From an uncultured Clostridia bacterium (GTDB lineage Bacteria; Bacillota; Clostridia; TANB77; CAG-508), in contig CAKOVS010000003.1 in NCBI GenBank assembly GCA_934122085.1, positions 81,734 to 145,733 on the forward strand: a stretch of DNA of 64,000 nt, written 5' to 3'. Each line of letters begins with the position of its first letter. Position 1 is the stretch's first letter. The notes beneath the pieces are model-generated. The model searched no databases. It had not been told where the DNA came from and worked only from the letters and a program-made list of their open reading frames with translations. Positions 9,087 to 36,729 of this stretch are shown one piece after another. The position numbers and the translations under genes were made by a program.

Positions 9087-9434
9087 AAATAAGTTCTCCT
9101 TTCAATTTGTTATGAAGAACTTTGAAATTATTGAAATAATTCAAGCAAAATTGCTTTGTTAAAATTTGTTGAAATTTTATAATTTTCTTTGTTGAAATGT
9201 TTGGTTGAAGAAAATAACCGAATTTTATAAAATTTTTCTGAACTCAAAAAAATTATGCTATTCTCAAATTTCTTTGAAAAATAGCATAATTCATAACTTT
9301 TGAATTTTTATAAATTCTCTTAAATTCCCTTGAAAAAGGGGCAAAATATGGTCGAGGCGACGAGAGTTTACCAGCCCAAACTAGCTTATTTTATTGCATT
9401 TTAGAATTTTCTGAATGTAGTTTGAATGCAGTAA

Positions 9435-10421
9435 CTATTCTAAATTTAAAATATCTCCAAGTAATAAATATGTATAAATTACGTAACTTTTTGCTTCATT
9501 TAAATTTATTTTATCGTGTGTTCCCTTACAAGCTGCATTATTTACGGAATCTATTCTATTACCTATATATGATAAATTTGACCCAACAATAGCATTATAT
9601 GTAGAACTCTTGCTTTTACTTTCTATATATTGAATTAATCTATTAACATATTGTTCTTCACCTAATTTTATTTCTTTTTTTCCAATAAAAATTGATTCTG
9701 GTTTGGGTGGATATAAATTGTCTGCAACTTCCTTTAATTTTCTTCTACAAGTATGTACAGCATTAGCCCAATCTTCTGGATTATTAGAATCCATATTAAG
9801 AAATATTGACGAAAACTTTCTAATAGTTTCTGGGCATAAATTTAGCAATTTGACATCTACTATTTTTCTTTTTTCGGTAAATATATCTTCAACTGTATTA
9901 CTATATGTTAACTGATTATATATTTTTAAAGTATAATCATAAATTTTTCCTTTTACGATACCTATTCTTTTTTCATACTTTTTTATTATTGCTACGATAC
10001 CATTTCTTTCAACTACATTTTTTGCACAAGAAATCATATATGGTGTAAAATCTGCCCCATAAGATTGAGGATCTTTTGCTGATTTCATTCTTTCAGTTTG
10101 TATATTTATAGTTTCTAGCATTTCAGCAATTGTTTCTGTATATGCTAACTCTTGTTTTTCTTTTTTGTCATTAGTTTCAATATAGATTCTTCCAGCAATT
10201 TTGCATATTTCCCATGCTCTATTGGTAAGATATCCTTCCTTATCTATCGGATATCCAGAAGATTCATAGCTAAAAAAATCAATTCCTTGTTCATCTCCCA
10301 TTAATCTACAAAGTCGTAATCCTTTTAATATTATATTATCCATTGGTATCTCTGATAATTCTATATTTTTTAAAATTTCTTCTGCTAAAGTTTCACATTC
10401 CTCTATATTTTTTATTTTCAT
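9435..10421 (-). CDS. Hypothetical protein (328 aa), last gene of the cargo operon
   Basis: Long ORF starting 24 nt after the Fic stop on the same strand. No family recognised. Confidence 0.55.
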   Translation of the reverse strand: MKIKNIEECETLAEEILKNIELSEIPMDNIILKGLRLCRLMGDEQGIDFFSYESSGYPIDKEGYLTNRAWEICKIAGRIYIETNDKKEKQELAYTETIAEMLETINIQTERMKSAKDPQSYGADFTPYMISCAKNVVERNGIVAIIKKYEKRIGIVKGKIYDYTLKIYNQLTYSNTVEDIFTEKRKIVDVKLLNLCPETIRKFSSIFLNMDSNNPEDWANAVHTCRRKLKEVADNLYPPKPESIFIGKKEIKLGEEQYVNRLIQYIESKSKSSTYNAIVGSNLSYIGNRIDSVNNAACKGTHDKINLNEAKSYVIYTYLLLGDILNLE

Positions 10422-10445
10422 TTATAATTACTCCTTGCTACAACA

Positions 10446-11129
10446 TTAATTTTTTTCATACCCAAATTTTTTCATTCTTTCTTTTTCTCTAGTAGATAAA
10501 TCTTTTAGCCATTCAGCTAAGCCATTACTATCATTATTTCTCAAAAATTCAAAATACTTTACCCTATCCTCTTTTGCTATAACAACAGGTGGCAAATTAT
10601 TTTTTAAAAATTCATAATTTATAAGTAATCTACCAGTTCTACCATTTCCATCTTCAAAAGGATGTATTCTTTCAAATTCGATATGATATCTAGCAATTTT
10701 AGTAAATATATCTTGCTCGTCGTGATTATAATTGTATATATAATACATCATTAAATTTGGCACTTTTTCAGGTTCAGGTGGAATATGTTCACTACCTTGA
10801 ATGAATACCTGTACAGCTCTATAACCTTCAGTATCTTTAATATCTCTGTTTATAATTTCATTTAATTTCTTTATAAGTCTTTCATCAAATTCTTCATTAT
10901 TTTGTAAATTTTTAAAAACTAATTCTAATGCTTTTTTATGATTGATAGCCTCATATATTTCTCTTGGCTCTTTTCCTTCTATTTTAAAGCTATTGTCATT
11001 ATAAAGAATAGCATAAGTTTCAGCATAAGTAAGTGTACTTCCTTCAATAGCATTTGAATGATAAGTACTTCTTGTAATTAAATCTTCTAAATAATCTTTA
11101 TTATTTAAAATAAATTCTAAAATAGTCAT
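10446..11129 (-). CDS. fic: Fic/Doc-family protein (AMPylation/phosphotransfer toxin-like)
   Basis: Canonical Fic motif HPFEDGNGRTGR. The N-terminal SNAIEG fits the [ST]xxxE[GN] inhibitory-helix motif. Confidence 0.8.
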   Translation of the reverse strand: MTILEFILNNKDYLEDLITRSTYHSNAIEGSTLTYAETYAILYNDNSFKIEGKEPREIYEAINHKKALELVFKNLQNNEEFDERLIKKLNEIINRDIKDTEGYRAVQVFIQGSEHIPPEPEKVPNLMMYYIYNYNHDEQDIFTKIARYHIEFERIHPFEDGNGRTGRLLINYEFLKNNLPPVVIAKEDRVKYFEFLRNNDSNGLAEWLKDLSTREKERMKKFGYEKN

Positions 11130-11143
11130 AGTTTTCCTCTTTT

Positions 11144-11893
11144 CTATAATCTTTTCATTATATCTATATACTCACCAGCAGTTAAAACTGTTTTAGGCAA
11201 ATGTAATTGAGTATAATAAGTATCTTTATTTTTTTGATATATTGCATCAATAATTTTACAATTTTCATCTTTATCAATTGTCATTACTAAACCAAGCACA
11301 TTATATTTTTGTGATAATTTTGTAGTATATAAAGCAATTCTATCAGTAGCATCAAGTGGCATTTCTTCGTCATCAAAAGAATCAATTTCAACAATTATAA
11401 TACTATTTTTTAAATCTTTAATTTTCAACATAATTTGTGGCTTAGGATCATTGCTCTTTACAAAATCATTAAATATATTAGCTATTTTTAGCATAGAAAT
11501 ATTTGTATTTGTTATAGTTTCTCCAAAAGTAGTTTTTCCTACACCACAACATAATTCGTTTATCGCAGTGTTTAGTGTAGTGTCATTTTTGTAGATTTCT
11601 TTAACTTTATTCATTCTCTTTTTTGTGAAGTTGTATTTATCTTTAATACCCGATATATCAAGTGTAGATATATCTGTTTCATCTACAAAAACATCTGGTG
11701 TTCTACCTAATAAATAATCAATTGACACATTAAAAATTGTTGACAATTTTTTTATTGCTTCAATATTGGGTTCTCTCATATCTAATTCATATTTTGATAT
11801 TGCTGCAGGCTCTACTCCTAATTTAGTAGCAATATCTTTTTGTGTAAAGCCATTTTTCTCTCTTAAATACTTTATTCTTTCCCCATTTGTCAT
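11144..11893 (-). CDS. XRE-family HTH regulator fused to a small P-loop NTPase-like domain
   Basis: N-terminal QKDIATKLGVEPAAISKYE HTH. Walker A-like CGVGKTT and Walker B-like IIIVEIDSFDDE in the C-terminal half. It is divergent from the xis-like gene, which is an ImmR-like position. Confidence 0.6.
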   Translation of the reverse strand: MTNGERIKYLREKNGFTQKDIATKLGVEPAAISKYELDMREPNIEAIKKLSTIFNVSIDYLLGRTPDVFVDETDISTLDISGIKDKYNFTKKRMNKVKEIYKNDTTLNTAINELCCGVGKTTFGETITNTNISMLKIANIFNDFVKSNDPKPQIMLKIKDLKNSIIIVEIDSFDDEEMPLDATDRIALYTTKLSQKYNVLGLVMTIDKDENCKIIDAIYQKNKDTYYTQLHLPKTVLTAGEYIDIMKRL

Positions 11894-11931
11894 AGTTTTT
11901 TCTCCTTCTTAATTTATGTATAAATTTTATC

Positions 11932-12160
11932 ATATCCATTTTGGAAAGTCAATGATTACTAAAAATTAAATATTTTTTACATAAAAGTTATAGAAAGTTC
12001 AAAAAATTTTGAAAAATATATTGACATTATATCCATTATGGATTAATATATAAATATCCAAAACGGATATAAATAGACTTGAAAGGAGGAATGCAATAAA
12101 AGTGAATATATAAATAACAATTTATTTTTTTACTCATTAAGTATCCAAAAAGGATAGATA
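11932..12160. promoter_or_regulatory. Divergent promoter region carrying four copies of the palindromic operator TATCCA-N3-5-GGATA
   Basis: atatccattttggaaag (11932-11948), atccattatggat (12031-12043, inside the spacer of TTGACA-N17-TAATAT at 12021-12048), tatccaaaacggata (12055-12069), tatccaaaaaggata (12142-12156). Confidence 0.55.
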
Positions 12161-12165
12161 TAATT

Positions 12166-12429
12166 TTGAAGGAGGACAAAGTTATGAATGAAAGTTTTAG
12201 TGAAGAACTTAAGAAAGAATTAGTAAAACAAGCTGTAAAAAGCTTGGATGACCCATTTAAAATGTTGACTGTAAAAGATGTAGCAAAAGATTTATATATG
12301 GGGGAAAACAAAACAAACGAAATATTTAATCGTGCAGACTTCCCATCTGTTAATATAGGCAAAACTAGAAAAATACAAAAGATAGCCTATATTTTATGGA
12401 AGATGGAAAAAAGGATTGATGTTATATGA
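12166..12429 (+). CDS. xis: Excisionase/MerR-like small HTH DNA-binding protein (Xis-like)
   Basis: KMLTVKDVAKDLYMGENKTNEIFNRADFPSVNIGKTRKI resembles the excisionase-family HTH. The start is likely the ATG at 12184, after the GGAGG. Confidence 0.5.
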   Translation: MKEDKVMNESFSEELKKELVKQAVKSLDDPFKMLTVKDVAKDLYMGENKTNEIFNRADFPSVNIGKTRKIQKIAYILWKMEKRIDVI

Positions 12430-12588
12430 GAAATATAAAAAACATTTATACAAAAGCACACTTTAGCGAGCAGGCTTTTGCACAAATGCTACATAAAGAC
12501 ATTCGTAATCTTTATAAGAATATTATATCATTTTTCCTTACTTCTAACAATAGAAAATTAAGTAGAAATATTAGAAAGTGAGTAGATT

Positions 12589-13386
12589 ATGGAAAAAACA
12601 AAGAGATATTATTGGATAAAGTTAAAAACTGATTTTTTTAATTTAGCTGAGATAGATTTTTTATTATCACAAAAAGATGGTTGTCAATATATAGTTTTAT
12701 ACCAAATGCTATGTTTACAAACTGCTAACAATAATGGTGAACTAGCATCGAGAGTTGGAGAAATGATTATTCCTTATGATCCAGATAAAATAGCAAGAGA
12801 TACTAAATATTTTAGTAAAGATACTGTTATTGTAGCTATGGAATTATTTAAAAAACTAAATTTAATATATACAGATGATGGAATTTGCTTAAAAATAGCA
12901 GGATTTGAAAATATGGTTGGTAGTGAAACTGGTTGGGCAAAACAAAAAAGAGAACAGAGAGAAAAGCAAAAATTATTAAGTGGACAATGTCCACCAAATA
13001 GTCCACAAGAGATAGATAAAGAGTTAGATATAGAGATAGATGAAGATATAGAAACTGATGGATTGAATGATAGATTAAAGTTAATTAATTTAAAATTAAA
13101 TAAAGCAAAACTAGTTCAAGAGGAAACAACAAAATACAATGCGATTTTCAATAAAAAGAAAATATATATTCAAAACGCAGAATATCTACCAGAAAATCTA
13201 TTAACACAAATAAAATTATATCAATCAGCAATCAAAAGATTATATGATAATAAACAAGCTGAATTATTAGAAAAAGTTACTTTACCGATACTAGAGAAAG
13301 TATTTGGTAACATTTTAAAAAGTAAAAAAATTGAAAATATAATAGAATATTACATTTCAAGTTTAATAAATGAACTTGCAAAATAG
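12589..13386 (+). CDS. Phage replisome organizer N-terminal domain protein (replication initiation)
   Basis: N-terminus YYWIKLKTDFF....LYQMLCLQ....GEMIIPYD....ELFKKLNLIY matches the Phage_rep_org_N pattern. Confidence 0.6.
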   Translation: MEKTKRYYWIKLKTDFFNLAEIDFLLSQKDGCQYIVLYQMLCLQTANNNGELASRVGEMIIPYDPDKIARDTKYFSKDTVIVAMELFKKLNLIYTDDGICLKIAGFENMVGSETGWAKQKREQREKQKLLSGQCPPNSPQEIDKELDIEIDEDIETDGLNDRLKLINLKLNKAKLVQEETTKYNAIFNKKKIYIQNAEYLPENLLTQIKLYQSAIKRLYDNKQAELLEKVTLPILEKVFGNILKSKKIENIIEYYISSLINELAK

Positions 13387-13398
13387 GAGGTCAAGATT

Positions 13399-14577
13399 AT
13401 GAAGAAAAAAAGAAGAAGAGGAAATGGCGAAGGTACAATATTTGAAGATAAGAAAAATAAAAGATGGATAGGTCAATACATATCAGGAATATCTTCAGAA
13501 GGAAAAGCTATTAGAAAATCAGTATATGGAAAAACTCAAAAAGAGGTTTTAAATAAATTAAATGAGATTAAATATAAAATGAATAATGATATGTATGTAG
13601 AGAAAAATGGAATTGAATTAGTAAAAATAATGGAAGATATAAGAGAAGAAAAACTTGCGTCAAATACAATTTCTGGTGGTCAATATGCTAGATTAAAATG
13701 GACTATCAATAAAATTAAAAATAGCAAAATTGGAAATATGAAAATACAAGATATAACAAAAGATGATATTCAAGAGTTTTTAAATTCTGTAAAAGATTTA
13801 AGTGATTCATATATTAAGAAACTTTATGAACAATTTGTACAAGCATATCGTAGGGCAGAAATTAAAAAATATATTTCATATAATCCTATGTATGAAGTAA
13901 TAAAACCTAAAAGCAATAAGCAAACTAAAGTCGTTGAAGCATTAGATATTGATGTGCAAAAATCATTTACAGAATATTTAAATAAAATTTCAATAGAAGA
14001 TGAACCATATAAAAATATATTTTTAATACAAATGTATATGGGATTAAGAATAGGAGAAGTACTAGCATTAAGCAAAGAGAGTATTGATTTAGAAAATAAA
14101 GTTTTATATGTTAAGAGAACACTTACAAATGATAAAGAATTTGCGATTATTTTAGGAAATAAGACCAAAACATATTCAGGTAATAGAATTTTACCTATAC
14201 CAGAATTTTTAGTGCCTATTTTTGAAGAACAACTAAAATATACAAATGAAAATTTATACAATTTAATATTTACAAATAATGATAGTTATATAAGAACATC
14301 TGCAATTAATAAAGAGCTAAAAAGAATTTTCAAAGAAGAATTAAATGTAAATTCTAAAAATATTAGCACACATTGTTTAAGACACACTTATGGAACAAGA
14401 TGTATTGAAGCAGGAATGACAGCAGTAGTTTTACAAAGATTAATGGGACACAAAGATGTTACAGTAACTTTAAATACATATACATCTGTGTTCAATAAAT
14501 TTAAAGAAGATGAAATTGAAAAAGTAAATAACTATTTAAATAATAACCAATTAAATTTTGTAAATAGCAGTAATTAG
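13399..14577 (+). CDS. int: Tyrosine-type site-specific recombinase/integrase
   Basis: C-terminus HCLRHTYGTRCIEAGMTAVVLQRLMGHKDVTVTLNTYTSV carries the R...H..R...Y catalytic signature. The N-terminal region is SAM-like. Confidence 0.85.
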   Translation: MKKKRRRGNGEGTIFEDKKNKRWIGQYISGISSEGKAIRKSVYGKTQKEVLNKLNEIKYKMNNDMYVEKNGIELVKIMEDIREEKLASNTISGGQYARLKWTINKIKNSKIGNMKIQDITKDDIQEFLNSVKDLSDSYIKKLYEQFVQAYRRAEIKKYISYNPMYEVIKPKSNKQTKVVEALDIDVQKSFTEYLNKISIEDEPYKNIFLIQMYMGLRIGEVLALSKESIDLENKVLYVKRTLTNDKEFAIILGNKTKTYSGNRILPIPEFLVPIFEEQLKYTNENLYNLIFTNNDSYIRTSAINKELKRIFKEELNVNSKNISTHCLRHTYGTRCIEAGMTAVVLQRLMGHKDVTVTLNTYTSVFNKFKEDEIEKVNNYLNNNQLNFVNSSN

Positions 14578-14595
14578 AATATCAAATATATAGTA

Positions 14596-14644
14596 TTGCA
14601 AGCTTCCTATTTGTAAGTACAAGTACTACAAATAGAGCTTGCAA
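14596..14644 (+). promoter_or_regulatory. Candidate oriT: imperfect 18-20 bp inverted repeat immediately upstream of mobC
   Basis: ttgcaagcttcctatttgta (14596-14615) pairs with tacaaatagagcttgcaa (14627-14644) around a central agtacaagtact. A ccccaacccc tract follows. Confidence 0.4.
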
Positions 14645-14702
14645 AATTGGGAGAACCCCAACCCCTTTAATCTGTTTTAGGGAAAATAAAGGAGGAAGTT
14701 GA

Positions 14703-15011
14703 ATGCAAAAAAATCAGAAGATAAATATACGATTAACTGAAAGTGAAAAGATGAAAATTGAAGAAAAATCAAAAATGTATAATATGACTATTTCTAAATT
14801 TATAATTAGTTCTTGTTTAAAAGATAAAATTATTATTGTAAATGGATTAGATAAAGTAGATAGTGAACTTAGAAGAATAGGAAATAATATTAATCAATTA
14901 ACAAGACTTGCAAATGAAAAAATAATTACAGTAGTTGACTTGAAAGAACTGCGAATGGAAGTGAATAACATATGGCAATTATTGAAGCAATTAGTTCAAA
15001 AGCAAATTTAA
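14703..15011 (+). CDS. mobC: MobC-like relaxosome accessory protein (ribbon-helix-helix)
   Basis: INIRLTESEKMKIEEKSKMYNMTISKFI. Small protein that overlaps the relaxase start. Confidence 0.6.
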   Translation: MQKNQKINIRLTESEKMKIEEKSKMYNMTISKFIISSCLKDKIIIVNGLDKVDSELRRIGNNINQLTRLANEKIITVVDLKELRMEVNNIWQLLKQLVQKQI

Positions 15012-16207
15012 AAACAATTATAAATTATGTTACACAAGACAAGAAAACAAATGCTAATTTGATAACAGGGAAAGACTGCTTAGCTGAAAGTAGTTTAGAA
15101 GAAATGTTATATACAAAAGAATTATATAACAAGAATAATGGCAGACAGTATATTCATATTATTCAATCATTTGACCCAAAAGATAATTTATCTGCAGATC
15201 AAGTTCATAATACAGGTATTAGATTAGCAAAAAAATTCAATGGATACCAGGTATTAGTCGCAACACATATTGATAAAAAACATTTGCATAACCATTTAGT
15301 TGTAAATTCAGTTTCATTTGAAAATGGATATAAAATACAAATGAGTAAAAAGAATTTACAAGATTTAAAAGATTATTCAGACAAGTTGTGTTTGGAAATA
15401 GGAGCTTCAGTTATACCTAAAAAAGAAAACACACAATACATAAAAAGAAATGAATACAGAGTTGCTGAACAAGGTAAGAGTTGGAAATTTAAATTAATGA
15501 ATGCAATTGATTTATCATTAGCAGAAAGTAATACAAAAGAAGAGTTTATAAAAAATATGAATAAATTAGGATATCAAGTTAATTGGACAGATACAAGAAA
15601 ATACATTACATATACAACACCTGAAGGATATAAATGTAGAGATAATAAATTATATGATGAAAAATATTCAAAAGGAGCAATGGAAAATGAATTTAGAAGA
15701 ATTGAAAAAGAACAATCAAATAATACAAGAAAATCAAGTAGTTCCATCAATAGTAAAGATGGATTATTATCTAATAGAGCCAGAGATAATCAAGGATTTA
15801 TATCAAATGGAACAAGCAATAGTAGAAGATATAACAATTATGAAAAAGAAAGTACAAGATACACAGGAAAAGTTATTAAAGGACAATATTCGAATGAACG
15901 AGGAAATGAAAAAATTGGTAGAGGAAAAGTTGAAAGATCAATTTTACAACTTGAAACAAGAATTGAAAGAAACGAAAGAGGAACAGAAAAGCAAGATTTC
16001 CAAAATAAAATGGAAAACAGGTTTAATAACATTCTTGGTGGGATTATTGCTATCAGCAATATGGTTTCTAACTCACAAATAAATCATAGACCTAAAAGAA
16101 AAATTAGAAGATATAAGACTTTATCAAAACAGGCTATGAAAGAATATGCAATGAAGAAAGCTAATTCTAGTGGTTTTGATTGGTTTGAAGATGAGGAAGA
16201 AATGTAA
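14972..16207 (+). CDS. mobA: MOBP-family relaxase (MobA/VirD2-like)
   Basis: Histidine-triad motif HIDKKHLHNHLVVNSV (HxDxxHxHxHxxxN). N-terminus MAIIEAISSKANLKTIINYV is typical of relaxases. Confidence 0.75.
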   Translation: MAIIEAISSKANLKTIINYVTQDKKTNANLITGKDCLAESSLEEMLYTKELYNKNNGRQYIHIIQSFDPKDNLSADQVHNTGIRLAKKFNGYQVLVATHIDKKHLHNHLVVNSVSFENGYKIQMSKKNLQDLKDYSDKLCLEIGASVIPKKENTQYIKRNEYRVAEQGKSWKFKLMNAIDLSLAESNTKEEFIKNMNKLGYQVNWTDTRKYITYTTPEGYKCRDNKLYDEKYSKGAMENEFRRIEKEQSNNTRKSSSSINSKDGLLSNRARDNQGFISNGTSNSRRYNNYEKESTRYTGKVIKGQYSNERGNEKIGRGKVERSILQLETRIERNERGTEKQDFQNKMENRFNNILGGIIAISNMVSNSQINHRPKRKIRRYKTLSKQAMKEYAMKKANSSGFDWFEDEEEM

Positions 16208-16341
16208 ATAGTTAACGAGTTTAGATAATATATTCATACATCGATTATATAATAGTTTAAATTTATAAAATTGTTGTTGACAAAATAATTTATTATGATA
16301 AAATTAAATTAATTATTTTTATTCGAAAGAGAGGGAAAGAT

Positions 16342-16710
16342 ATGGTAGAAAAAAATGAAACAGCTAATTCATATAATAAATATAGAACAATGCTAGAAAA
16401 TATAAAATCTAAATGTTTACCAAAAAATTTAATTAAGACAACTGAAGAAGGAGTAGAATATTATTGTTTTGATGGACTTCATGTTTGCCTTGAAGGTGAT
16501 GAAATTCACGTATTTGATAAAGAACCTCAATTTAATTACGATTATCTTGGTGATACAAAAAAATTAGTAGATTCTAATGTTCATTTTGGATTGAATATTA
16601 ATGATGAAATAAGTTTTGAAATTCTAGAAGGTTTTTATAATGTTGGTTCTGATCAGCTTGAAAATGGAGAATTTATTATGAACATTGACTTTGATCAAGA
16701 ACGGACTTAA
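16342..16710 (+). CDS. Hypothetical protein (122 aa) of the IME
   Basis: ORF with an upstream TTGACA...TAAAAT promoter and a GAGAGGGAAAG RBS. Confidence 0.45.
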   Translation: MVEKNETANSYNKYRTMLENIKSKCLPKNLIKTTEEGVEYYCFDGLHVCLEGDEIHVFDKEPQFNYDYLGDTKKLVDSNVHFGLNINDEISFEILEGFYNVGSDQLENGEFIMNIDFDQERT

Positions 16711-17044
16711 TTACGCTAATATATCTAAAAAATTAGTAAATAATAAATATGAGCTTGATATGAATGCCTTAGAAAATTCACAAGAAGACATTATACCTTT
16801 ATTACTTGCAGATATATCAAATCTTACTTCAAATAAGCAAGAACTCTTGCAATATGTAAATAAATTTTATCAAAAAATACAAGAAGTTTCTCAAGCAAAA
16901 GACTTAAAATCTGTAAGTACACAAGCTCTTGGTAAAGAAACATTAAGTGAGCAAAATGATACACAAGCTAAAGATGCTGTTCAACAAGATATAGAACAAC
17001 AATTAAATCAACAAAAAGATAAAGATAATCTTTCAAAAGAATAG
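16685..17044 (+). CDS. Hypothetical Q/K-rich protein; start uncertain
   Basis: ORF overlapping the previous one. An internal Met at about 16760 is a possible start. Confidence 0.35.
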   Translation: MTLIKNGLNYANISKKLVNNKYELDMNALENSQEDIIPLLLADISNLTSNKQELLQYVNKFYQKIQEVSQAKDLKSVSTQALGKETLSEQNDTQAKDAVQQDIEQQLNQQKDKDNLSKE

Positions 17045-17053
17045 GAGTATATT

Positions 17054-17497
17054 ATGATTAGTATGGAATATGCAAATGCATATACAGAGGTATTAGAAAT
17101 ATTAAAATTTATACCTAAAACAGATTATAATAAAATACCACAAGATATGATTAAAGTTTTTTCCGATAATCAAAATAAAAATTATATATTTAATTATAAT
17201 CCTTTACAATCTCTTGATGACCAAAATGTATCAAAAAAAGCAAAACTAATTATATCGATTTTATTTAGAGATTATTGGGCACAAGATAATCAAAGAGCAA
17301 AAATATTAAATAAAGAAAAAATAGATAGAATGAGATTTGAGGAAGAAAAACAAGAAAAATATAATGTAAATAATTTGTTTAAGAACAAACAAGAAAATTT
17401 GCAAAACTCAGAAAGTAATACTTCATTAATTGAAGTAAAAGAAAAGAATTTTTTACAAAAAATAATTGAAAAAATTATAAATTTATTTAGAAAATAG
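17054..17497 (+). CDS. Hypothetical protein (147 aa) of the IME
   Basis: ORF with a GGAG RBS (aataggagtatattATG). Confidence 0.45.
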   Translation: MISMEYANAYTEVLEILKFIPKTDYNKIPQDMIKVFSDNQNKNYIFNYNPLQSLDDQNVSKKAKLIISILFRDYWAQDNQRAKILNKEKIDRMRFEEEKQEKYNVNNLFKNKQENLQNSESNTSLIEVKEKNFLQKIIEKIINLFRK

Positions 17498-17764
17498 ATA
17501 TATATATCGATAACAAGATGAAATTTTGTATAATTTGCATCTTGTTATCTTTTATTATACTAAAATTTAAAAAATATAATTAAAGATACTTCCTTTATGC
17601 TAAAATAATTTGAATGCAATTATTACATTCAAATTATTTTAGCTGAATGTAGCATTGAATGCAGTAACACAAATATAGAGAAATTTAGAAAAAGTTAGAG
17701 AAAAGAAAAAAGGCTTCAAATAGCCTAAAAACAAATTAAGAGACTTGTAAAAAGTCTCTTTTTC

Positions 17765-17840
17765 TGGTCGAGGCGACAGGGATCGAACCTGCGACCTCAT
17801 GGTCCCAAACCACGCGCGCTACCAACTGCGCTACGCCTCG
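17765..17840 (-). tRNA. tRNA-Pro (anticodon TGG)
   Basis: Reverse complement CGAGGCGTAGCGCAGTTGGTAGCGCGCGTGGTTTGGGACCATGAGGTCGCAGGTTCGATCCCTGTCGCCTCGACCA. 7-bp acceptor stem, anticodon loop TTTGGGA, T-loop TTCGATC, encoded CCA. Confidence 0.9.
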
Positions 17841-33706: not shown

Positions 33707-35659
33707 TTAAAGTTCAATAAAATTAAATTCAATATTATTATTTTGTAAAATTCTTAATTCCCTAGTTGTACATGTAAATATAATTATTTGTCTATCTTTA
33801 AATTCTTTTGATAAAAATAGCATAATATTTTCCAATCTAATATCATCAAAATATGCAAATGTTTCATCTAATATTATCGGTAATTTTTCATTAGATATTT
33901 CATCTATAATAGCTAACCTTAATGATAAATAAATTTGATCTATTGTTCCTATACTTAACCTATCTGCTGATACATAGTTACCATTTGGCAATTCTACAAT
34001 TAATCCTTGTTCATCATTAAATAAAATATTATTATATTTTCCATTAGTTATTTTTGAAATATTTTCTGATAATTTTTTGTTAAACTCAGGATTAATATTT
34101 TCTTTTAATTTTTCATATGCCTTTTCAATTGTTTCTTTTACTAACTCAATTGCATCATTCTCTTCTTTTAATTCATTTAATTGGTTTCCTAGTATTTCTT
34201 GCTCTTCTTCTAATCTTACAATTTCACTAGATTGTTCTTCAAATTCTTCTTGTTTTATTTCTAATTTTGTTAATTCATTACTTGAATTTTCAATCATTGT
34301 TTGTAATATATTTATTTTTTTTTCAATATCATTTTCATTAAATATTTCATTTATTTTTTCTATATTAAAAATATCTGAATATTTATCAAATATTTTTTTC
34401 TTTTCAATATTTAATAAATATATATTTTTATTTTTTTCTTTTTCAATTTGTTCTTCCATTATTTTTGAATTATTATCTAATAAATTTAATTGATTTTTTA
34501 ATTTATTAATTTCATTTTCATTATTTTCTATATTATTATTATTTTGTTTTTCTAATTCTTTTATTTTTTTATTTATTGTTCTTATTTTTAAATAATAAAT
34601 AATTAAATAAATTGGTATTATAAATATAATTAAATATTTTATTATTTTATTTTTTATCAAATAAATCCAAATTAAATTAATTATTAATATAAATAAAATT
34701 ATATTATATTTTTTTATTTTTTTGTTTTTAAATTGTTTTTTATTTTCAATTAATTTATTATTTTTTATTTTATTATAATTATTATTTTCAAAATTAATAT
34801 TTTTATTTATTATATTTTTATTGTTATTATTTTCTTGAATTATTTTTTCTTTTATTTTTATTTTTTCATTATTAATTTCATTTTTATTAAAAATATTTTT
34901 TACATCTAAAAATAAATTAATTTTATTTTTATTTTCATTTATTTCTTTTTTTAATTGATTTATTTTTTCTTGATTTTCTTCTTTTAAATTTTGTTCAATT
35001 TTTAATCGATTTATTTTTTCTTGATTTTCTTCATATTTTTTATTAATAATATTTATTGGTCTTTCTTTTGTTCTTTCTGTTCCAATTTTCTCTAATTGCA
35101 ATTTATTTAATTTATCTATCGTTTCTTTATATGAAATGTTATCTTGTCCTGTTCCCAACATGTTAGAAATTTTTTGTAGTAACATTTCCTTTATATCTTT
35201 TCCAAATTTTACCTCTTGTTGTAATGATATTGATGTTGCTAAAAACATTTTTGAATCAATATTTGTTTGCTCTTGAAAAAATTCATTTCCATTTTTTTTA
35301 TTTATATTAAATTTATTTGATATTTCTTCTCCTTGTTCATTAAATATATTTGGATTTTTTTTATTAAATTCTCTATATATTTCATATTTATTTTTATTAT
35401 CTAATTCATATGTTATTTTTCCTGAAAATTCATCACTGTCCCATGGTTTATATTTTTCATAATCTGATATTTCTTTTCCATTTTTATTTTTTTGTGTTCC
35501 ATATAATATATTAAAAATAAAATTTAAAATTGTTGATTTTCCACTTTCGTTTTTTCCATAAATAATATTTAAATTATTATTTAATTTTATTTCTTTATTT
35601 TTTATTTTTCCATATGAATTTATTTTTATTTTATTTATTTTCAAAATAAATCCCTCCAT
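33707..35659 (-). CDS. sbcC: SbcC/Rad50-like ATPase (YhaN-like) with a long coiled coil, an N/K/I-rich low-complexity insert and a predicted TM segment
   Basis: Walker A GKNESGKST at the N-terminus; C-terminal LPIILDETFAYFD D-loop/Walker B; coiled-coil repeats in between. Confidence 0.7.
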   Translation of the reverse strand: MEGFILKINKIKINSYGKIKNKEIKLNNNLNIIYGKNESGKSTILNFIFNILYGTQKNKNGKEISDYEKYKPWDSDEFSGKITYELDNKNKYEIYREFNKKNPNIFNEQGEEISNKFNINKKNGNEFFQEQTNIDSKMFLATSISLQQEVKFGKDIKEMLLQKISNMLGTGQDNISYKETIDKLNKLQLEKIGTERTKERPINIINKKYEENQEKINRLKIEQNLKEENQEKINQLKKEINENKNKINLFLDVKNIFNKNEINNEKIKIKEKIIQENNNNKNIINKNINFENNNYNKIKNNKLIENKKQFKNKKIKKYNIILFILIINLIWIYLIKNKIIKYLIIFIIPIYLIIYYLKIRTINKKIKELEKQNNNNIENNENEINKLKNQLNLLDNNSKIMEEQIEKEKNKNIYLLNIEKKKIFDKYSDIFNIEKINEIFNENDIEKKINILQTMIENSSNELTKLEIKQEEFEEQSSEIVRLEEEQEILGNQLNELKEENDAIELVKETIEKAYEKLKENINPEFNKKLSENISKITNGKYNNILFNDEQGLIVELPNGNYVSADRLSIGTIDQIYLSLRLAIIDEISNEKLPIILDETFAYFDDIRLENIMLFLSKEFKDRQIIIFTCTTRELRILQNNNIEFNFIEL

Positions 35660-35664
35660 ATTAT

Positions 35665-36729
35665 TTAACTTAAAATTTCTAGTCCTATTTCTAATGCTTT
35701 TTCTATTATTTTTTCGTTATAATTATTTTTATTGTTTAATAATTCTTTTACAAATAATCCTTTTAAATTATTTTCTTGAATTATTTTTTCTATATTATAA
35801 TTTATTTTTGTATTATTTTTTATTTTTATTATTTTTTCATCTAAATAATATTTATATATTTCATTAATATTTATTTCAAAATTTCTTTTTCCAATTAATA
35901 TTATTTCATATAATTTATTTTCTTCTAAATTAATTGAATTTATTTTTTCGATTATTTCTTCTATTGAATTTAATTCTGTACAATCCAATTCTTGTTTTTT
36001 AAATTCCAATTCATCCAATTTAATAAATTCTAATTTATTTCCTAATTTAGAAATTTCTCCTGTTACCATTCCATGTTCACCCAATTCATCAAATCCCATT
36101 GCTATGGTAGAACCAGAATATATTATTTTTCCATCGTTTTTAAAATTATTTTTGTGTATATGTCCTAAAGCAATATAATCAAAACCTTTTTCTTGCAACA
36201 TTCTTGTACTCATTGAATTATATTGCATATCTTCTAAGTTCGCCCCATCTAGAGTTCCATGAATTACTAATATATTTATTTTGTTTGGATTTGATATTTT
36301 TAAATCTCTAAAATTCAAATTTGAGCAGTAAAAATCATCAAAGCCATATCCATATATATCTATATCATCTGTTTCTATCATTTCAAATTTAGGACCAAAT
36401 ATATGAACATTTTTATTCCAACAAAAATTGCTATAATATGAATTTTTTAATACTGGATCATGATTACCTGGTGAAATAAATATTTGCGTATCATTTATCT
36501 CTGAAAATAATCTATTTATATATTCAATTGTTGAACTTCTTATATATTGATTTTCATACAAATCTCCTGCAATAAAAAAATATTTTATATTATTTTCTTT
36601 TATATAATTAATTATCTTTCTTAATATAACTCTTTGATCATATCTTCTTTGCTCTCCAATTCCTATTTTGTCTGAAAGCATTTTAAATTGCATATCAAAA
36701 TGCATATCTGCTATATGTACAAATCTCAT
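35665..36729 (-). CDS. sbcD: SbcD/Mre11-like metallophosphoesterase nuclease (YhaO-like)
   Basis: MRFVHIADMHFD ... AGDLYE ... GNHD ... GHIH motifs. Confidence 0.75.
   Translation of the reverse strand: MRFVHIADMHFDMQFKMLSDKIGIGEQRRYDQRVILRKIINYIKENNIKYFFIAGDLYENQYIRSSTIEYINRLFSEINDTQIFISPGNHDPVLKNSYYSNFCWNKNVHIFGPKFEMIETDDIDIYGYGFDDFYCSNLNFRDLKISNPNKINILVIHGTLDGANLEDMQYNSMSTRMLQEKGFDYIALGHIHKNNFKNDGKIIYSGSTIAMGFDELGEHGMVTGEISKLGNKLEFIKLDELEFKKQELDCTELNSIEEIIEKINSINLEENKLYEIILIGKRNFEININEIYKYYLDEKIIKIKNNTKINYNIEKIIQENNLKGLFVKELLNNKNNYNEKIIEKALEIGLEILS

What the first reader, a model, noticed from the sequence alone, without database searches (positions are those of the whole stretch)
9435..11893. 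Three-gene IME cargo operon (XRE-HTH/P-loop protein, Fic, 328-aa unknown): candidate toxin or defense module
These three same-strand genes have 14- and 24-nt gaps and read divergently from the xis/rep/int module. The first fuses an XRE HTH to a small domain with Walker A (GVGKTT) and Walker B (IVEIDSFDDE) motifs. The second is a Fic protein with an intact HPFEDGNGRTGR active site and an N-terminal SxxxEG inhibitory-type motif. The third is a 328-aa protein with no recognisable family. Fic/Doc toxins on mobile elements often act in addiction or abortive infection. The ImmR-like position of the HTH-ATPase suggests it could couple element regulation to Fic activity. The unknown third protein could be a sensor, effector or antitoxin.
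Basis: partly seen in the sequence, partly recalled or inferred. Interest (0 to 1): 0.65.

Follow-up and report, generated by a model that had tools for sequence, protein, structure and literature searches.

The report
Mobile-element repressor plus two defence passengers
The three adjacent genes sit at one end of a small mobile element in an uncultured gut Clostridium: the first is the element's own repressor, and the other two are independent, swappable passengers (a Fic enzyme and an AbiTii/HEPN-type abortive-infection protein), so this is not a new three-part toxin system.

Summary
The three minus-strand ORFs, the 14- and 24-nt gaps and both Fic motifs are real.

**P-loop.** The "Walker A" GVGKTT is not a P-loop. 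It does not fit GxxxxGK[ST], the lysine varies among homologues, it lies in a predicted β-hairpin, and the domain is an orphan.

**328-aa protein.** It does have a family: an AbiTii domain fused to a c2405-type HEPN-like domain. That architecture was described in 2013.

**Context.** The genes form the cargo arm of an 8.4-kb integrative mobilizable element. The element is bounded by a 13-nt repeat at the tRNA-Pro 3' end (9349-9361 and 17765-17777).

- Gene 1 is the element's conserved ImmR-like repressor. Four TATCC-N5-GGATA palindromes lie in its divergent promoter region.
- The slot downstream of gene 1 varies between related elements: Fic in about half, otherwise Schlafen-like, PDC-M59 or DUF3800 genes.
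- The gene after Fic also varies: AbiTii-long, AbiTii-short, AIPR/AbiU or unknown proteins.
- Fic usually occurs without this repressor.
- AbiTii-c2405 homologues stand alone in Bacillus prophage regions, other Clostridia contigs and Acinetobacter and Streptomyces plasmids.

**Verdict.** A repressor plus two autonomous candidate defence passengers, which is an ordinary new member of a known kind. The anti-phage function is inferred, not shown.

The parts
9349..9361 (.). attL: distal copy of the 13-nt direct repeat TGGTCGAGGCGAC. It marks the left boundary of the element, 74 nt beyond the stop codon of gene 3.
   Evidence: There are only two copies in 64 kb, against 0.00 expected by chance. A 99%-identical element in L006 loses homology near here, at window 9290. 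In related loci the distal repeat always lies downstream of the cargo.
9435..10421 (-). Gene 3, 328 aa: AbiTii N-terminal domain (residues 12-188, about 9858-10388) fused to a c2405-type HEPN-like C-terminal domain (residues ~151-325, about 9447-9971). Invariant residues are EDWANAxHxCRR (216-227) and KGTH (299-302). It is a predicted single-gene abortive-infection protein.
   Evidence: Pfam and PADLOC AbiTii hits. A 43-sequence family alignment gives the invariant residues. The AF2 model has pLDDT 84 and an all-helical C-terminal domain. BLASTP gives 34% identity and E 5e-32, and hhalign gives 99.7% probability, to CFT073 WP_001120270.1. The architecture is described in PMC3710099.
10446..11129 (-). 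Gene 2, 227 aa: class II Fic (FICD/CdFic-like) AMP-transferase. The catalytic motif HPFEDGNGRTGR is at residues 156-167 (10629-10664). The inhibitory motif SNAIEG is at residues 25-30 (11040-11057).
   Evidence: PF02661 at 77 bits. Full-length match to PADLOC PDC-S04, E 4e-66. Motif positions. The sequence aligns to FICD, with SNAIEG over TVAIEG, and to CdFic and BtFic.
11144..11893 (-). Gene 1, 249 aa: ImmR-like XRE repressor. The HTH is at residues 1-67 (11693-11893). An orphan α/β C-terminal domain covers residues 68-249 (11147-11692). It is conserved with the element backbone.
   Evidence: HTH_3 hit. The best solved match is the ICEBs1 ImmR DNA-binding domain: 47% identity, profile E 9e-18. 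The AF2 model has pLDDT 90.6. The C-terminal domain has only 28 relatives among 1.84e9 representative proteins. Synteny with xis/rep/int/mob is seen.
11933..12156 (.). Divergent control region with four copies of the palindrome TATCC-N5-GGATA (11933-11947, 12030-12044, 12055-12069, 12142-12156). These are the inferred operators of the gene 1 repressor.
   Evidence: All four window matches (1 mismatch or fewer) fall in this 224-bp stretch. Only 7 of 100 shuffles gave 4 or more matches anywhere in the window. The exact palindrome is present in 34 of the 64 loci then held, and in the HTH-anchored loci it lies just upstream of the HTH gene.
11924..11952 (-). Promoter-like site for the gene 1-2-3 transcript (TTGACT-17-TAAAAT with an extended TG). 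It overlaps the operator at 11933-11947.
   Evidence: This is a consensus match only, and promoter-like sites are not enriched over shuffles in this AT-rich DNA.
12021..12049 (+). Promoter-like site for the xis/rep/int/mob operon (TTGACA-17-TAATAT). It overlaps the operator at 12030-12044.
   Evidence: consensus match only.
12166..16207 (+). Element backbone: xis-like gene (12166-12429), 51-aa ORF, replisome organiser (12589-13386), tyrosine integrase (13399-14577), NikA/MobC (14703-15011) and MobA/VirD2 relaxase (14972-16207).
   Evidence: The xis assignment rests on position only, because it has no Pfam hit.
17765..17840 (-). tRNA-Pro(UGG). Its 3' terminal 13 nt (17765-17777) form attR.

Best explanation
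The region is the repressor-plus-cargo arm of an 8.4-kb integrative mobilizable element (window 9349-17777). The element is inserted in the 3' end of tRNA-Pro in an uncultured human-gut Clostridia bacterium.

**Gene 1.** It is the element's ImmR-like XRE repressor. I infer that it binds the four TATCC-N5-GGATA palindromes between the divergent promoters. This would shut off the xis-rep-int-mob operon and autoregulate its own transcript. Its orphan C-terminal α/β domain is most likely an oligomerisation or signal-sensing domain, not an ATPase.

**Genes 2 and 3.** They are passengers, probably co-transcribed from the repressor promoter. They would then be expressed while the element is quiescent, as λ rexAB is with cI. 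Each is an autonomous single-gene module.
- Gene 2 is an auto-inhibited class II Fic AMP-transferase of the PADLOC candidate type PDC-S04. If activated it would AMPylate a host target and arrest growth.
- Gene 3 is an AbiTii-sensor / c2405-type HEPN-like effector protein of the abortive-infection kind.

**The slot.** The segment between the repressor's stop codon and attL is a cargo slot that is exchanged between related elements.

**Shown here:** the ORFs, domains, motifs, att repeats, conserved palindromes, and the variable synteny.

**Inferred:** repressor binding, co-transcription, and the enzymatic and anti-phage activities.
For: **Element and boundaries**
- tRNA-Pro gene.
- 13-nt repeat at both ends.
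- A 99%-identical element shares window 9290-17775.
- The distal att always lies beyond the cargo.

**Repressor**
- The ImmR DNA-binding domain is the best solved match.
- The palindromes are confined to the divergent region. The exact palindrome recurs in 34 of the 64 loci then held.
- The gene is conserved with the backbone in dozens of loci, whatever the cargo.

**Cargo slot**
- In L007, homology to the window stops at 11130 and resumes at 9432, so exactly Fic plus gene 3 are replaced.
- Alternative occupants are Schlafen-AlbA_2/HATPase_c_4 proteins, PDC-M59A/B and DUF3800. After Fic the options are AbiTii-short, AIPR/AbiU, DUF4238 or unknown proteins.

**Autonomy of Fic**
- 46 of 67 metagenome loci with a Fic of at least 87% identity lack the repressor. 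Only 3 of 63 have AbiTii-long downstream.
- A solitary Fic lies next to a different integrase.
- A solitary Fic lies about 135 nt after tRNA-Pro, with DNA homology limited to the ORF.

**Autonomy of gene 3**
- Homologues have no Fic and no conserved partner in Bacillus prophage-like regions, two other Clostridia contexts, and Acinetobacter and Streptomyces plasmids.
- One contig has an in-frame stop in Fic but an intact gene 3.

**Domain identities:**
Against: - No experiment supports a defence role. The one published test of a PDC-S04 gene found no anti-phage activity in its native host (bioRxiv 10.1101/2024.12.20.629700).
- The c2405 family lacks the canonical HEPN arginine, so RNase activity is uncertain. 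HMMER found no DUF4145 or other HEPN Pfam hit for the C-terminal domain. Foldseek found no PDB match.
- Fic followed within 12-60 nt by some Abi-like gene recurs in many elements. This could reflect function rather than mere slot geometry.
- Operator binding and co-transcription are inferred from sequence only.
- No ImmA-like anti-repressor is present, so how the element is induced is unknown.
Confidence: 0.75

Rival explanations
1. One integrated three-component toxin or defence system in which an HTH-ATPase senses or regulates, Fic is the toxin, and the 328-aa protein is a sensor, effector or antitoxin.
For: - Tight spacing on the same strand, with ribosome-binding sites and no internal terminator.
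- The same trio recurs at 83-99% identity in several contigs (L006, L050-53, L072, L119).
Against: - The P-loop claim is refuted.
- The trio is rare. AbiTii-long follows Fic in 1 of 17 Fic-bearing species-representative loci and in 3 of 63 metagenome loci.
- Each gene occurs without the others.
Confidence: 0.04
2. Genes 1 and 2 form an XRE-antitoxin / Fic-toxin pair, of the 'mobile mystery protein A/B' or Doc-like kind. The HTH protein would neutralise or transcriptionally restrain Fic, giving the element an addiction module.
For: - The repressor is directly upstream of Fic, with a 14-20 nt gap, in about half of the elements.
- XRE-plus-Fic pairs exist as families. Fic gives a weak hit to TIGR02613 mob_myst_B (E 0.0018).
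- Mini-elements retain only HTH plus Fic between the att sites (L032).
- Transcriptional control of Fic by gene 1 is part of my own model.
Against: - The TIGR02613 score of 18 is far below its cut-off of 124, and gene 1 gives no mob_myst_A hit.
- Fic carries its own intramolecular inhibitory motif.
- 46 of 67 near-identical Fic genes have no such partner.
- The repressor is equally conserved in the 16 of 33 loci that carry other cargo.
- Its operators sit in the divergent xis promoter region.
Confidence: 0.1
3. Fic and the gene downstream of it form a two-gene unit. Fic AMPylates and silences the adjacent HEPN/Abi-type effector, as MNT does for HEPN toxins, or it acts as the effector's sensor.
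For: - Within these elements Fic is followed at 12-60 nt by a series of different Abi-like proteins: AbiTii-long, AbiTii-short, AIPR/AbiU, and proteins with RNxxxH motifs.
- AMPylation of HEPN toxins by MNT antitoxins is established (my own knowledge, not checked here).
Against: - AbiTii-c2405 homologues are solo genes in every unrelated context examined.
- Most Fic copies have none of these cargo genes downstream (45 of 63).
- L050 has a nonsense codon in Fic but an intact gene 3.
- The pattern is explained by cargo exchange between the conserved Fic and attL anchors.
Confidence: 0.06
4. The passengers are not anti-phage genes. Fic serves the element or the host in another way, for example post-segregational stabilisation, growth control or modulation of translation. 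Gene 3 is an inactive or regulatory HEPN-like protein.
For: - PDC-S04 gave no defence in the one published test.
- The c2405 family lacks the catalytic Arg.
- SoFic reversibly AMPylates EF-Tu and binds its own promoter, which suggests regulatory roles for this kind of Fic.
- Fic is retained as a solitary gene at tRNA-Pro where the backbone is absent.
Against: - The same slot in sister elements holds proteins that match PADLOC models of known or candidate defence systems (AbiU, PDC-M59A/B) or carry Schlafen/AlbA_2 domains.
- The AbiTii domain comes from a proven Lactococcus Abi system.
- Class II Fic (SoFic) is reported to protect against phage.
Confidence: 0.2

Closest known systems
ImmR repressor of ICEBs1, and phage cI-type repressors that carry co-transcribed passenger genes such as λ rexAB
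   Same: - The XRE HTH is 47% identical to the ImmR DNA-binding domain.
- The gene is transcribed divergently from the xis/int operon.
- Repeated palindromic sites lie in the divergent promoter region.
- Passenger genes sit downstream in the same transcription unit. The λ rexAB analogy is from my own knowledge.
   Different: - At 249 aa it has a 180-residue orphan α/β C-terminal domain with no match in Pfam, PDB or BFVD.
- No ImmA-type protease gene is present in the element.
- DNA binding has not been tested.
Class II Fic AMP-transferases: human FICD/HYPE, C. difficile CdFic (4x2e), and SoFic, the single-gene 'SoFic' defence system
   Same: - The catalytic motif HxFx(D/E)GNGRxxR is intact.
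- The N-terminal (S/T)xxxE(G/N) inhibitory motif aligns to FICD TVAIEG.
- Its size is close to that of CdFic.
- The PADLOC SoFic model is hit at E 3.5e-33.
   Different: - It lacks the SoFic C-terminal domain: 227 aa against about 370. The NCBIfam SoFic score is 42 against a cut-off of 550.
- It fits the unvalidated candidate family PDC-S04 over its full length.
- No downstream small anti-Sofic (AS1-like) gene was identified.
- The target is unknown.
AbiTii-NTD + c2405-family HEPN proteins (Anantharaman et al. 2013), and Lactococcus AbiT (AbiTi + AbiTii)
   Same: - The AbiTii domain scores above the Pfam cut-off.
- The C-terminal domain is 34% identical (E 5e-32) to the CFT073 protein that is very probably c2405.
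- It has the family's hallmark of a conserved His without Arg.
- The published description matches.
   Different: - There is no AbiTi partner, and it is a single polypeptide unlike the two-gene AbiT.
[quoted passage not shown]
- No member of this fusion family has been tested experimentally, as far as the papers read here show.
Defence-gene hotspots of mobile elements (P2/P4 prophage hotspots, SXT ICE hotspot 5, PICI cargo). Recalled from my own knowledge.
   Same: A slot bounded by conserved element genes (the repressor's stop codon and attL) holds different single- or two-gene defence-type cassettes in sister elements.
   Different: - The host is an uncultured low-GC gut Clostridia lineage.
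- The carrier is a small 8-kb mobilizable element.
- The slot lies directly downstream of the repressor.
- No cargo has been tested.
Mobile mystery proteins A/B (TIGR02612 XRE HTH + TIGR02613 Fic)
   Same: An XRE HTH gene lies immediately upstream of a Fic gene on a mobile element.
   Different: - Fic scores 18 against a cut-off of 124 for TIGR02613.
- Gene 1 does not hit TIGR02612.
- The two genes are not co-inherited.

Membership tests
   The regex does not match; the sequence is LCCGVGKT. K120 is replaced by R/S/N/I/F/T/D/Y/G in homologues.
   The motif lies in the β-hairpin E119-121/E124-128 of the AF2 model, pLDDT 90.6. There is no NTPase hit in Pfam, NCBIfam, PDB sequences, PDB folds or BFVD. 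Only 28 relatives were found in 1.84e9 proteins.
ImmR-type element repressor | XRE HTH related to ImmR, encoded divergently from the excision/integration operon | tested here: met
   7t8i ImmR DNA-binding domain: 47% identity and E 4e-5 by Foldseek, profile E 9e-18. Divergent from the xis-like gene and int.
ImmR-type element repressor | Operator sites in the divergent promoter region | tested here: inconclusive
   Four TATCC-N5-GGATA palindromes are confined to 11933-12156, and the exact palindrome recurs in 34 of the 64 loci then held. Binding itself has not been tested.
ImmR-type element repressor | Adjacent ImmA-type metalloprotease anti-repressor | tested here: not met
   No peptidase hit in any ORF of the element.
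Fic/Fido class II AMP-transferase | Catalytic motif HxFx(D/E)GNGRxxR, and the Pfam Fic domain above its cut-off | tested here: met
   HPFEDGNGRTGR at residues 156-167. PF02661 scores 77.2 bits against a cut-off of 24.
Fic/Fido class II AMP-transferase | Inhibitory (S/T)xxxE(G/N) helix N-terminal to the core in the same chain | tested here: met
   SNAIEG at residues 25-30 aligns with FICD TVAIEG.
Fic/Fido class II AMP-transferase | AMPylation activity and its target | not testable with these tools
   This needs biochemistry.
SoFic defence system (NCBIfam NF046030 / PADLOC SoFic) | Full-length match, including the C-terminal domain, above the curated cut-off | tested here: not met
   NF046030 scores 42 bits against a cut-off of 550. 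The PADLOC SoFic match covers only profile positions 49-252 of 361. The protein is 227 aa.
PADLOC candidate PDC-S04 | Full-length HMM match | tested here: met
   PDLC04840 E 4.3e-66, profile positions 4-223 of 227. The family itself is unvalidated, and one negative test has been published.
Lactococcus AbiT two-gene system | AbiTii domain | tested here: met
   PF18864 scores 47.5 bits against a cut-off of 27.6. PADLOC AbiTii E 2e-18.
Lactococcus AbiT two-gene system | AbiTi partner gene | tested here: not met
   No AbiTi hit among the neighbouring proteins in PADLOC.
c2405-family HEPN (DUF4145-like clade, Anantharaman 2013) | Sequence homology to c2405 | tested here: met
   Residues 151-325 are 34% identical (E 5e-32) and hhalign gives 99.7% probability to CFT073 WP_001120270.1. 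That this protein is c2405 is inferred: it is the 7th gene after tcpC, which is c2398, and it has the C-terminal HhH domain noted for the family.
c2405-family HEPN (DUF4145-like clade, Anantharaman 2013) | Conserved His at the start of the last helix, with no Arg 4-6 residues upstream | tested here: met
   H302 is invariant in KGTH and no Rx4-6H is present. H302 lies between helices 283-298 and 307-325.
c2405-family HEPN (DUF4145-like clade, Anantharaman 2013) | HEPN fold and RNase activity | tested here: inconclusive
Mobile mystery protein A/B pair | TIGR02612 and TIGR02613 matches above their cut-offs | tested here: not met
   Fic scores 18.2 against a cut-off of 124.4 for TIGR02613. Gene 1 gives no TIGR02612 hit.

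The most novel reading that the evidence does not exclude
Fic is not just a neighbour. It could be a general AMPylating "safety catch" or sensor for whichever HEPN/Abi-type effector sits downstream of it in these elements. This would be analogous to MNT antitoxins that AMPylate HEPN toxins, making Fic + X a new modular two-gene immune architecture.

A related variant is also not excluded. The repressor's orphan C-terminal domain could sense infection or cargo activation, so that the element excises and escapes from a doomed cell.
Probability: 0.06. Interest if true: 0.7.

Novelty: new member of a known kind. Interest (0 to 1): 0.3.

Why it matters
**Limits.** By itself the locus adds little.
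- A class II Fic and an AbiTii-HEPN fusion are already catalogued as candidate or predicted defence genes.
- Defence cargo on mobile elements is a familiar theme.

**What is useful.**
- The analysis defines a widespread family of small tRNA-Pro-integrating mobilizable elements in uncultured human-gut Clostridia.
- These elements have a sharply bounded cargo slot just downstream of their repressor.
- Sister elements hold unannotated proteins in that slot, for example 441-aa, 455-aa and 279-aa proteins, some with RNxxxH motifs. These are reasonable candidates for new defence genes in a poorly studied lineage.
- The repressor is ImmR-like but has an orphan C-terminal domain and no ImmA partner. 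How these elements are induced is therefore a small open question.

Tried and rejected
**Readings tested and rejected**
- P-loop ATPase for gene 1: rejected.
- Three-part system: rejected by synteny.
- SoFic membership, the AbiT two-gene system and mobile mystery A/B: each fails a defining feature.

**Searches that found nothing**
- A conserved partner upstream of AbiTii-c2405 homologues. The upstream ORFs in L046, L063 and L064 are unrelated to each other and to Fic.
- Pfam scan of ten isolated C-terminal domains at E ≤ 10. It gave only noise (MukF_M, and one pP_pnuc_1 hit at E 0.047) and no DUF4145 or HEPN model.
- Profile search of PDB sequences with the gene 3 family: 0 hits at E ≤ 10. Foldseek against the PDB gave nothing below E 0.1.
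- Foldseek of the gene 1 model against the PDB and BFVD matched only the 60-residue HTH.
- Megablast of the whole element, and tblastn of gene 3, against the phage collection: no match. Megablast of the element against plasmids: no match.

**Unavailable or mistaken**
- The supplement of the HEPN paper does not hold the c2405 alignment.
- A first operator pattern with N6 spacing was wrong. N5 is correct.
- A general repeat search did not reveal the att site. It was found by comparing the element ends with L006.


Full report
**Observation.** The window holds three minus-strand ORFs at 11893..11144 (249 aa), 11129..10446 (227 aa) and 10421..9435 (328 aa). The gaps are 14 and 24 nt. Shine-Dalgarno-like sequences precede genes 2 and 3, and no terminator-like site lies between the genes. 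The ORFs face an xis-like gene, a replisome-organiser gene, a tyrosine integrase, NikA/MobC and a MobA/VirD2 relaxase on the plus strand. Gene 1 has an XRE HTH at residues 7-61. Gene 2 is a Fic protein (PF02661, 77 bits) with HPFEDGNGRTGR at 156-167 and SNAIEG at 25-30.

**The P-loop claim fails.**
- GVGKTT (117-122) does not fit GxxxxGK[ST].
- In an alignment of 37 family members, only G119 of that stretch is invariant. The "Walker lysine" is K, R, S, N, I, F, T, D, Y or G.
- The AlphaFold model (pLDDT 90.6, pTM 0.84) places the stretch in a β-hairpin rather than a strand-loop-helix.
- Pfam, NCBIfam, PHROGs and PADLOC match only the HTH. Profile search of PDB sequences and Foldseek against the PDB and BFVD also match only the first ~60-100 residues.
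- An exhaustive phmmer search with residues 68-249 against 1.84 billion representative proteins found just 28 relatives. All are ~250-aa proteins of the same architecture, or fragments.

The C-terminal domain is therefore an orphan α/β domain, not an NTPase.

**The 328-aa protein has a family.**
- Residues 12-188 match Pfam AbiTii (PF18864, 47.5 bits against a cut-off of 27.6) and PADLOC AbiTii.
- Full-length homologues at 45-60% identity are common in Bacillus, Paenibacillus, Lysinibacillus and Clostridia.
- The alignment shows an invariant C-terminal signature, EDWANAxHxCRR ... NR ... KGTH.
- Anantharaman et al. [quoted passage not shown]
- I fetched the CFT073 island around tcpC, which is c2398. 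The seventh gene downstream is a 390-aa protein with a C-terminal HHH_3 domain.
- That protein matches residues 151-325 of gene 3 at 34% identity (BLASTP E 5e-32) and hhalign probability 99.7%.
- Gene 3 has no Rx4-6H motif, and H302 is invariant. In the AF2 model (pLDDT 84), H302 lies between the last two helices of an all-helical domain.

**The element.**
- A tRNA-Pro(UGG) gene lies at 17765-17840 on the minus strand.
- Its 3'-terminal 13 nt, TGGTCGAGGCGAC, recur once more in the window at 9349-9361, which is 74 nt beyond the stop codon of gene 3. The chance expectation is 0.00.
- A 99%-identical element in another MAG shares window 9290-17775 and then diverges.
- In related loci the distal copy always lies downstream of the cargo.

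The three genes are therefore the left arm of an 8.4-kb integrative mobilizable element. RepA_N (8541-9086) and a TnpV fragment (8081-8260) lie outside it.

**Gene 1 is the element's repressor.**
- Its HTH is closest to the ICEBs1 ImmR DNA-binding domain (47% identity; profile E 9e-18).
- A palindrome, TATCC-N5-GGATA, occurs four times in the window with at most one mismatch. All four copies lie in the 224-bp divergent region at 11933-12156.
- Two copies overlap the best promoter-like sites for the two divergent transcripts.
- The exact palindrome is present in 34 of the 64 loci held at the time. In the HTH-anchored loci it lies just upstream of the HTH gene.
- Binding is inferred. No ImmA-like protease is encoded in the element.

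**Synteny shows independent modules.**
- *Around gene 1.* A scan of species-representative genomes found 40 loci, all from uncultured gut Clostridia MAGs. The repressor is kept with the xis/rep/int/mob backbone.
  - What follows it varies. In 33 loci with downstream sequence, Fic is adjacent in 17.
  - The other 16 mostly carry Schlafen-AlbA_2/HATPase_c_4 proteins or the candidate pair PDC-M59A/B. DUF3800 fills the slot in L001, a locus outside this set.
  - After Fic the next gene is AbiTii-long (1 of 17), a distinct 222-aa AbiTii protein with only marginal similarity to gene 3, AIPR/AbiU, DUF4238, or unannotated proteins.
  - In L007, homology to the window stops at 11130 and resumes at 9432. 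Exactly Fic plus gene 3 are replaced.
- *Around Fic.* The Fic family is very large, with 7674 hits. I examined 80 metagenome loci with a Fic of at least 87% identity.
  - Only 14 of the 67 with upstream sequence have the intact repressor. Seven have a remnant and 46 have none.
  - Only 3 of 63 have AbiTii-long downstream.
  - Fic also sits alone beside a different integrase.
  - In at least 12 loci it sits alone; in the eight checked with ARAGORN it lies about 135 nt downstream of tRNA-Pro. In the three compared by BLASTN, homology to the window is limited to the Fic ORF.
- *Around gene 3.* AbiTii-c2405 homologues have no Fic and no shared neighbour in Bacillus prophage-like regions, two other Clostridia contexts, an Acinetobacter plasmid and a Streptomyces plasmid. 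One contig carries an in-frame stop in Fic but an intact gene 3.

**Fic class.** The closest solved relatives are FICD/HYPE, CdFic and BtFic. SNAIEG aligns on the FICD inhibitory TVAIEG, so this is a class II, intramolecularly inhibited enzyme.
- It matches the PADLOC candidate PDC-S04 over its full length (E 4e-66). It matches SoFic only over the core.
- It fails the NCBIfam SoFic cut-off, scoring 42 against 550.
- SoFic-type proteins are reported to cause abortive infection by AMPylation (PMC12249575; PMC11514479) and to AMPylate EF-Tu reversibly.
- PDC-S04 itself showed no defence in the one native-host test.

**Most likely mechanism (confidence about 0.75 for the architecture).** The repressor binds the palindromes, silences excision, replication and transfer, and autoregulates its own transcript. 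Fic and the AbiTii-c2405 protein ride on that transcript, so they are made while the element is dormant. Each acts alone.
- Fic is held off by E29. An unknown trigger would release it, and it would then AMPylate a host target.
- In the AbiTii protein, the N-terminal domain is the presumed sensor and the HEPN-like domain the presumed effector.

That either gene protects against phage is an inference from family and from the other occupants of the slot. I would put it at roughly 50-60%.

**Rivals.** I rate four rivals: an integrated three-part system at 0.04, an HTH-Fic toxin-antitoxin pair at 0.1, a Fic-effector two-gene unit at 0.06, and non-defence roles for the passengers at 0.2. Each is discussed in its own section.

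**Novelty and interest.** This is a new member of known kinds: an ImmR-like repressor, a class II Fic, an AbiTii-HEPN fusion, and a defence cargo slot on a mobile element. The modest value lies in two things. The element family provides a well-bounded cargo slot in uncultured gut Clostridia, and its repressor has an orphan domain and no ImmA partner. Interest is 0.3.

Noticed in passing
L083, L088, L092, L096, L102, L105, L130, L131 (tRNA-Pro then Fic; e.g. L092 5790-5865 and 6001-6675): A near-identical Fic ORF sits alone about 135 nt downstream of tRNA-Pro(UGG), which is the element's integration site, in loci with no element backbone. In the three loci compared by BLASTN (L083, L092, L130), DNA homology to the window begins at the Fic start codon; it ends at the stop codon in L092 and L130 and about 50 nt beyond it in L083. 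This suggests that Fic was either captured from, or left behind at, the attachment site.
   Followed up: partly
window 9412-9435 and 17644-17668: A second sub-terminal direct repeat, TGAATGTAG(N1-2)TTGAATGCAGTAAC, lies just inside both ends of the element. It may be an integrase or excisionase arm site. The left copy overlaps the stop codon of gene 3.
   Followed up: partly
window 6100-9348 (RepA_N 8541-9086, TnpV fragment 8081-8260, ORFs 6198-6727 and 7360-7824): A RepA_N/TnpV module lies outside attL. Divergent versions of it follow the distal att in many related loci. It looks like a second, decayed element accreted in tandem at the same tRNA-Pro site.
   Followed up: partly
window 8641-8719: Three tandem ~23-nt repeats (TGTAAAATTTCCAGTTCTTGAAC-like) lie inside the 3' part of the RepA_N gene. 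They could be iterons.
   Followed up: no
L017 9454-10779, L011 3875-5242, L009 9463-10302, L008 2538-4409, L034 9470-10519: Unannotated proteins occupy the same cargo slot in sister elements. They are 441, 455, 279, 623 and 349 aa long, and three carry RNxxxH-type motifs (RNEVAH, RNLHLH, RNDIVH). They are candidate new defence genes.
   Followed up: partly
L019/L020 (contig CAMMMI010000001.1): The backbone genes (replisome organiser, integrase, NikA, relaxase) recur about 9.6 kb apart on one contig, and a second HTH match on the same contig was fetched as L020. This looks like two copies of the element in tandem.
   Followed up: no
L032 247-2352 and L115 5082-7662: These are mini-elements flanked by both att repeats. 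L032 retains only the repressor, Fic and a 78-aa ORF; L115 retains a repressor remnant plus Fic and one cargo gene. The backbone is deleted while the cargo arm is kept.
   Followed up: partly
L050 5305-5988: Fic is interrupted by an in-frame stop (82-aa and 101-aa ORFs), while the adjacent AbiTii-long gene is intact. This rests on a single metagenome contig, so it could be an assembly error.
   Followed up: no
window 33707-36729: The GC content dips to 12-16% between 34 and 36 kb. This corresponds to a 650-aa N/K/I-rich coiled-coil SbcC/Rad50-like ATPase gene next to a 354-aa ORF that looks like an SbcD/Mre11-type phosphoesterase (judged from the sequence only). It is ordinary housekeeping with extreme composition.
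   Followed up: partly
L054-L059 5694-6571 and L025 9457-10125: A short AbiTii protein (221-222 aa) has an abutting or overlapping 70-aa ORF directly downstream. This cassette follows Fic in a widely sampled variant of the element, and it may be an AbiT-like two-gene cassette.
   Followed up: no
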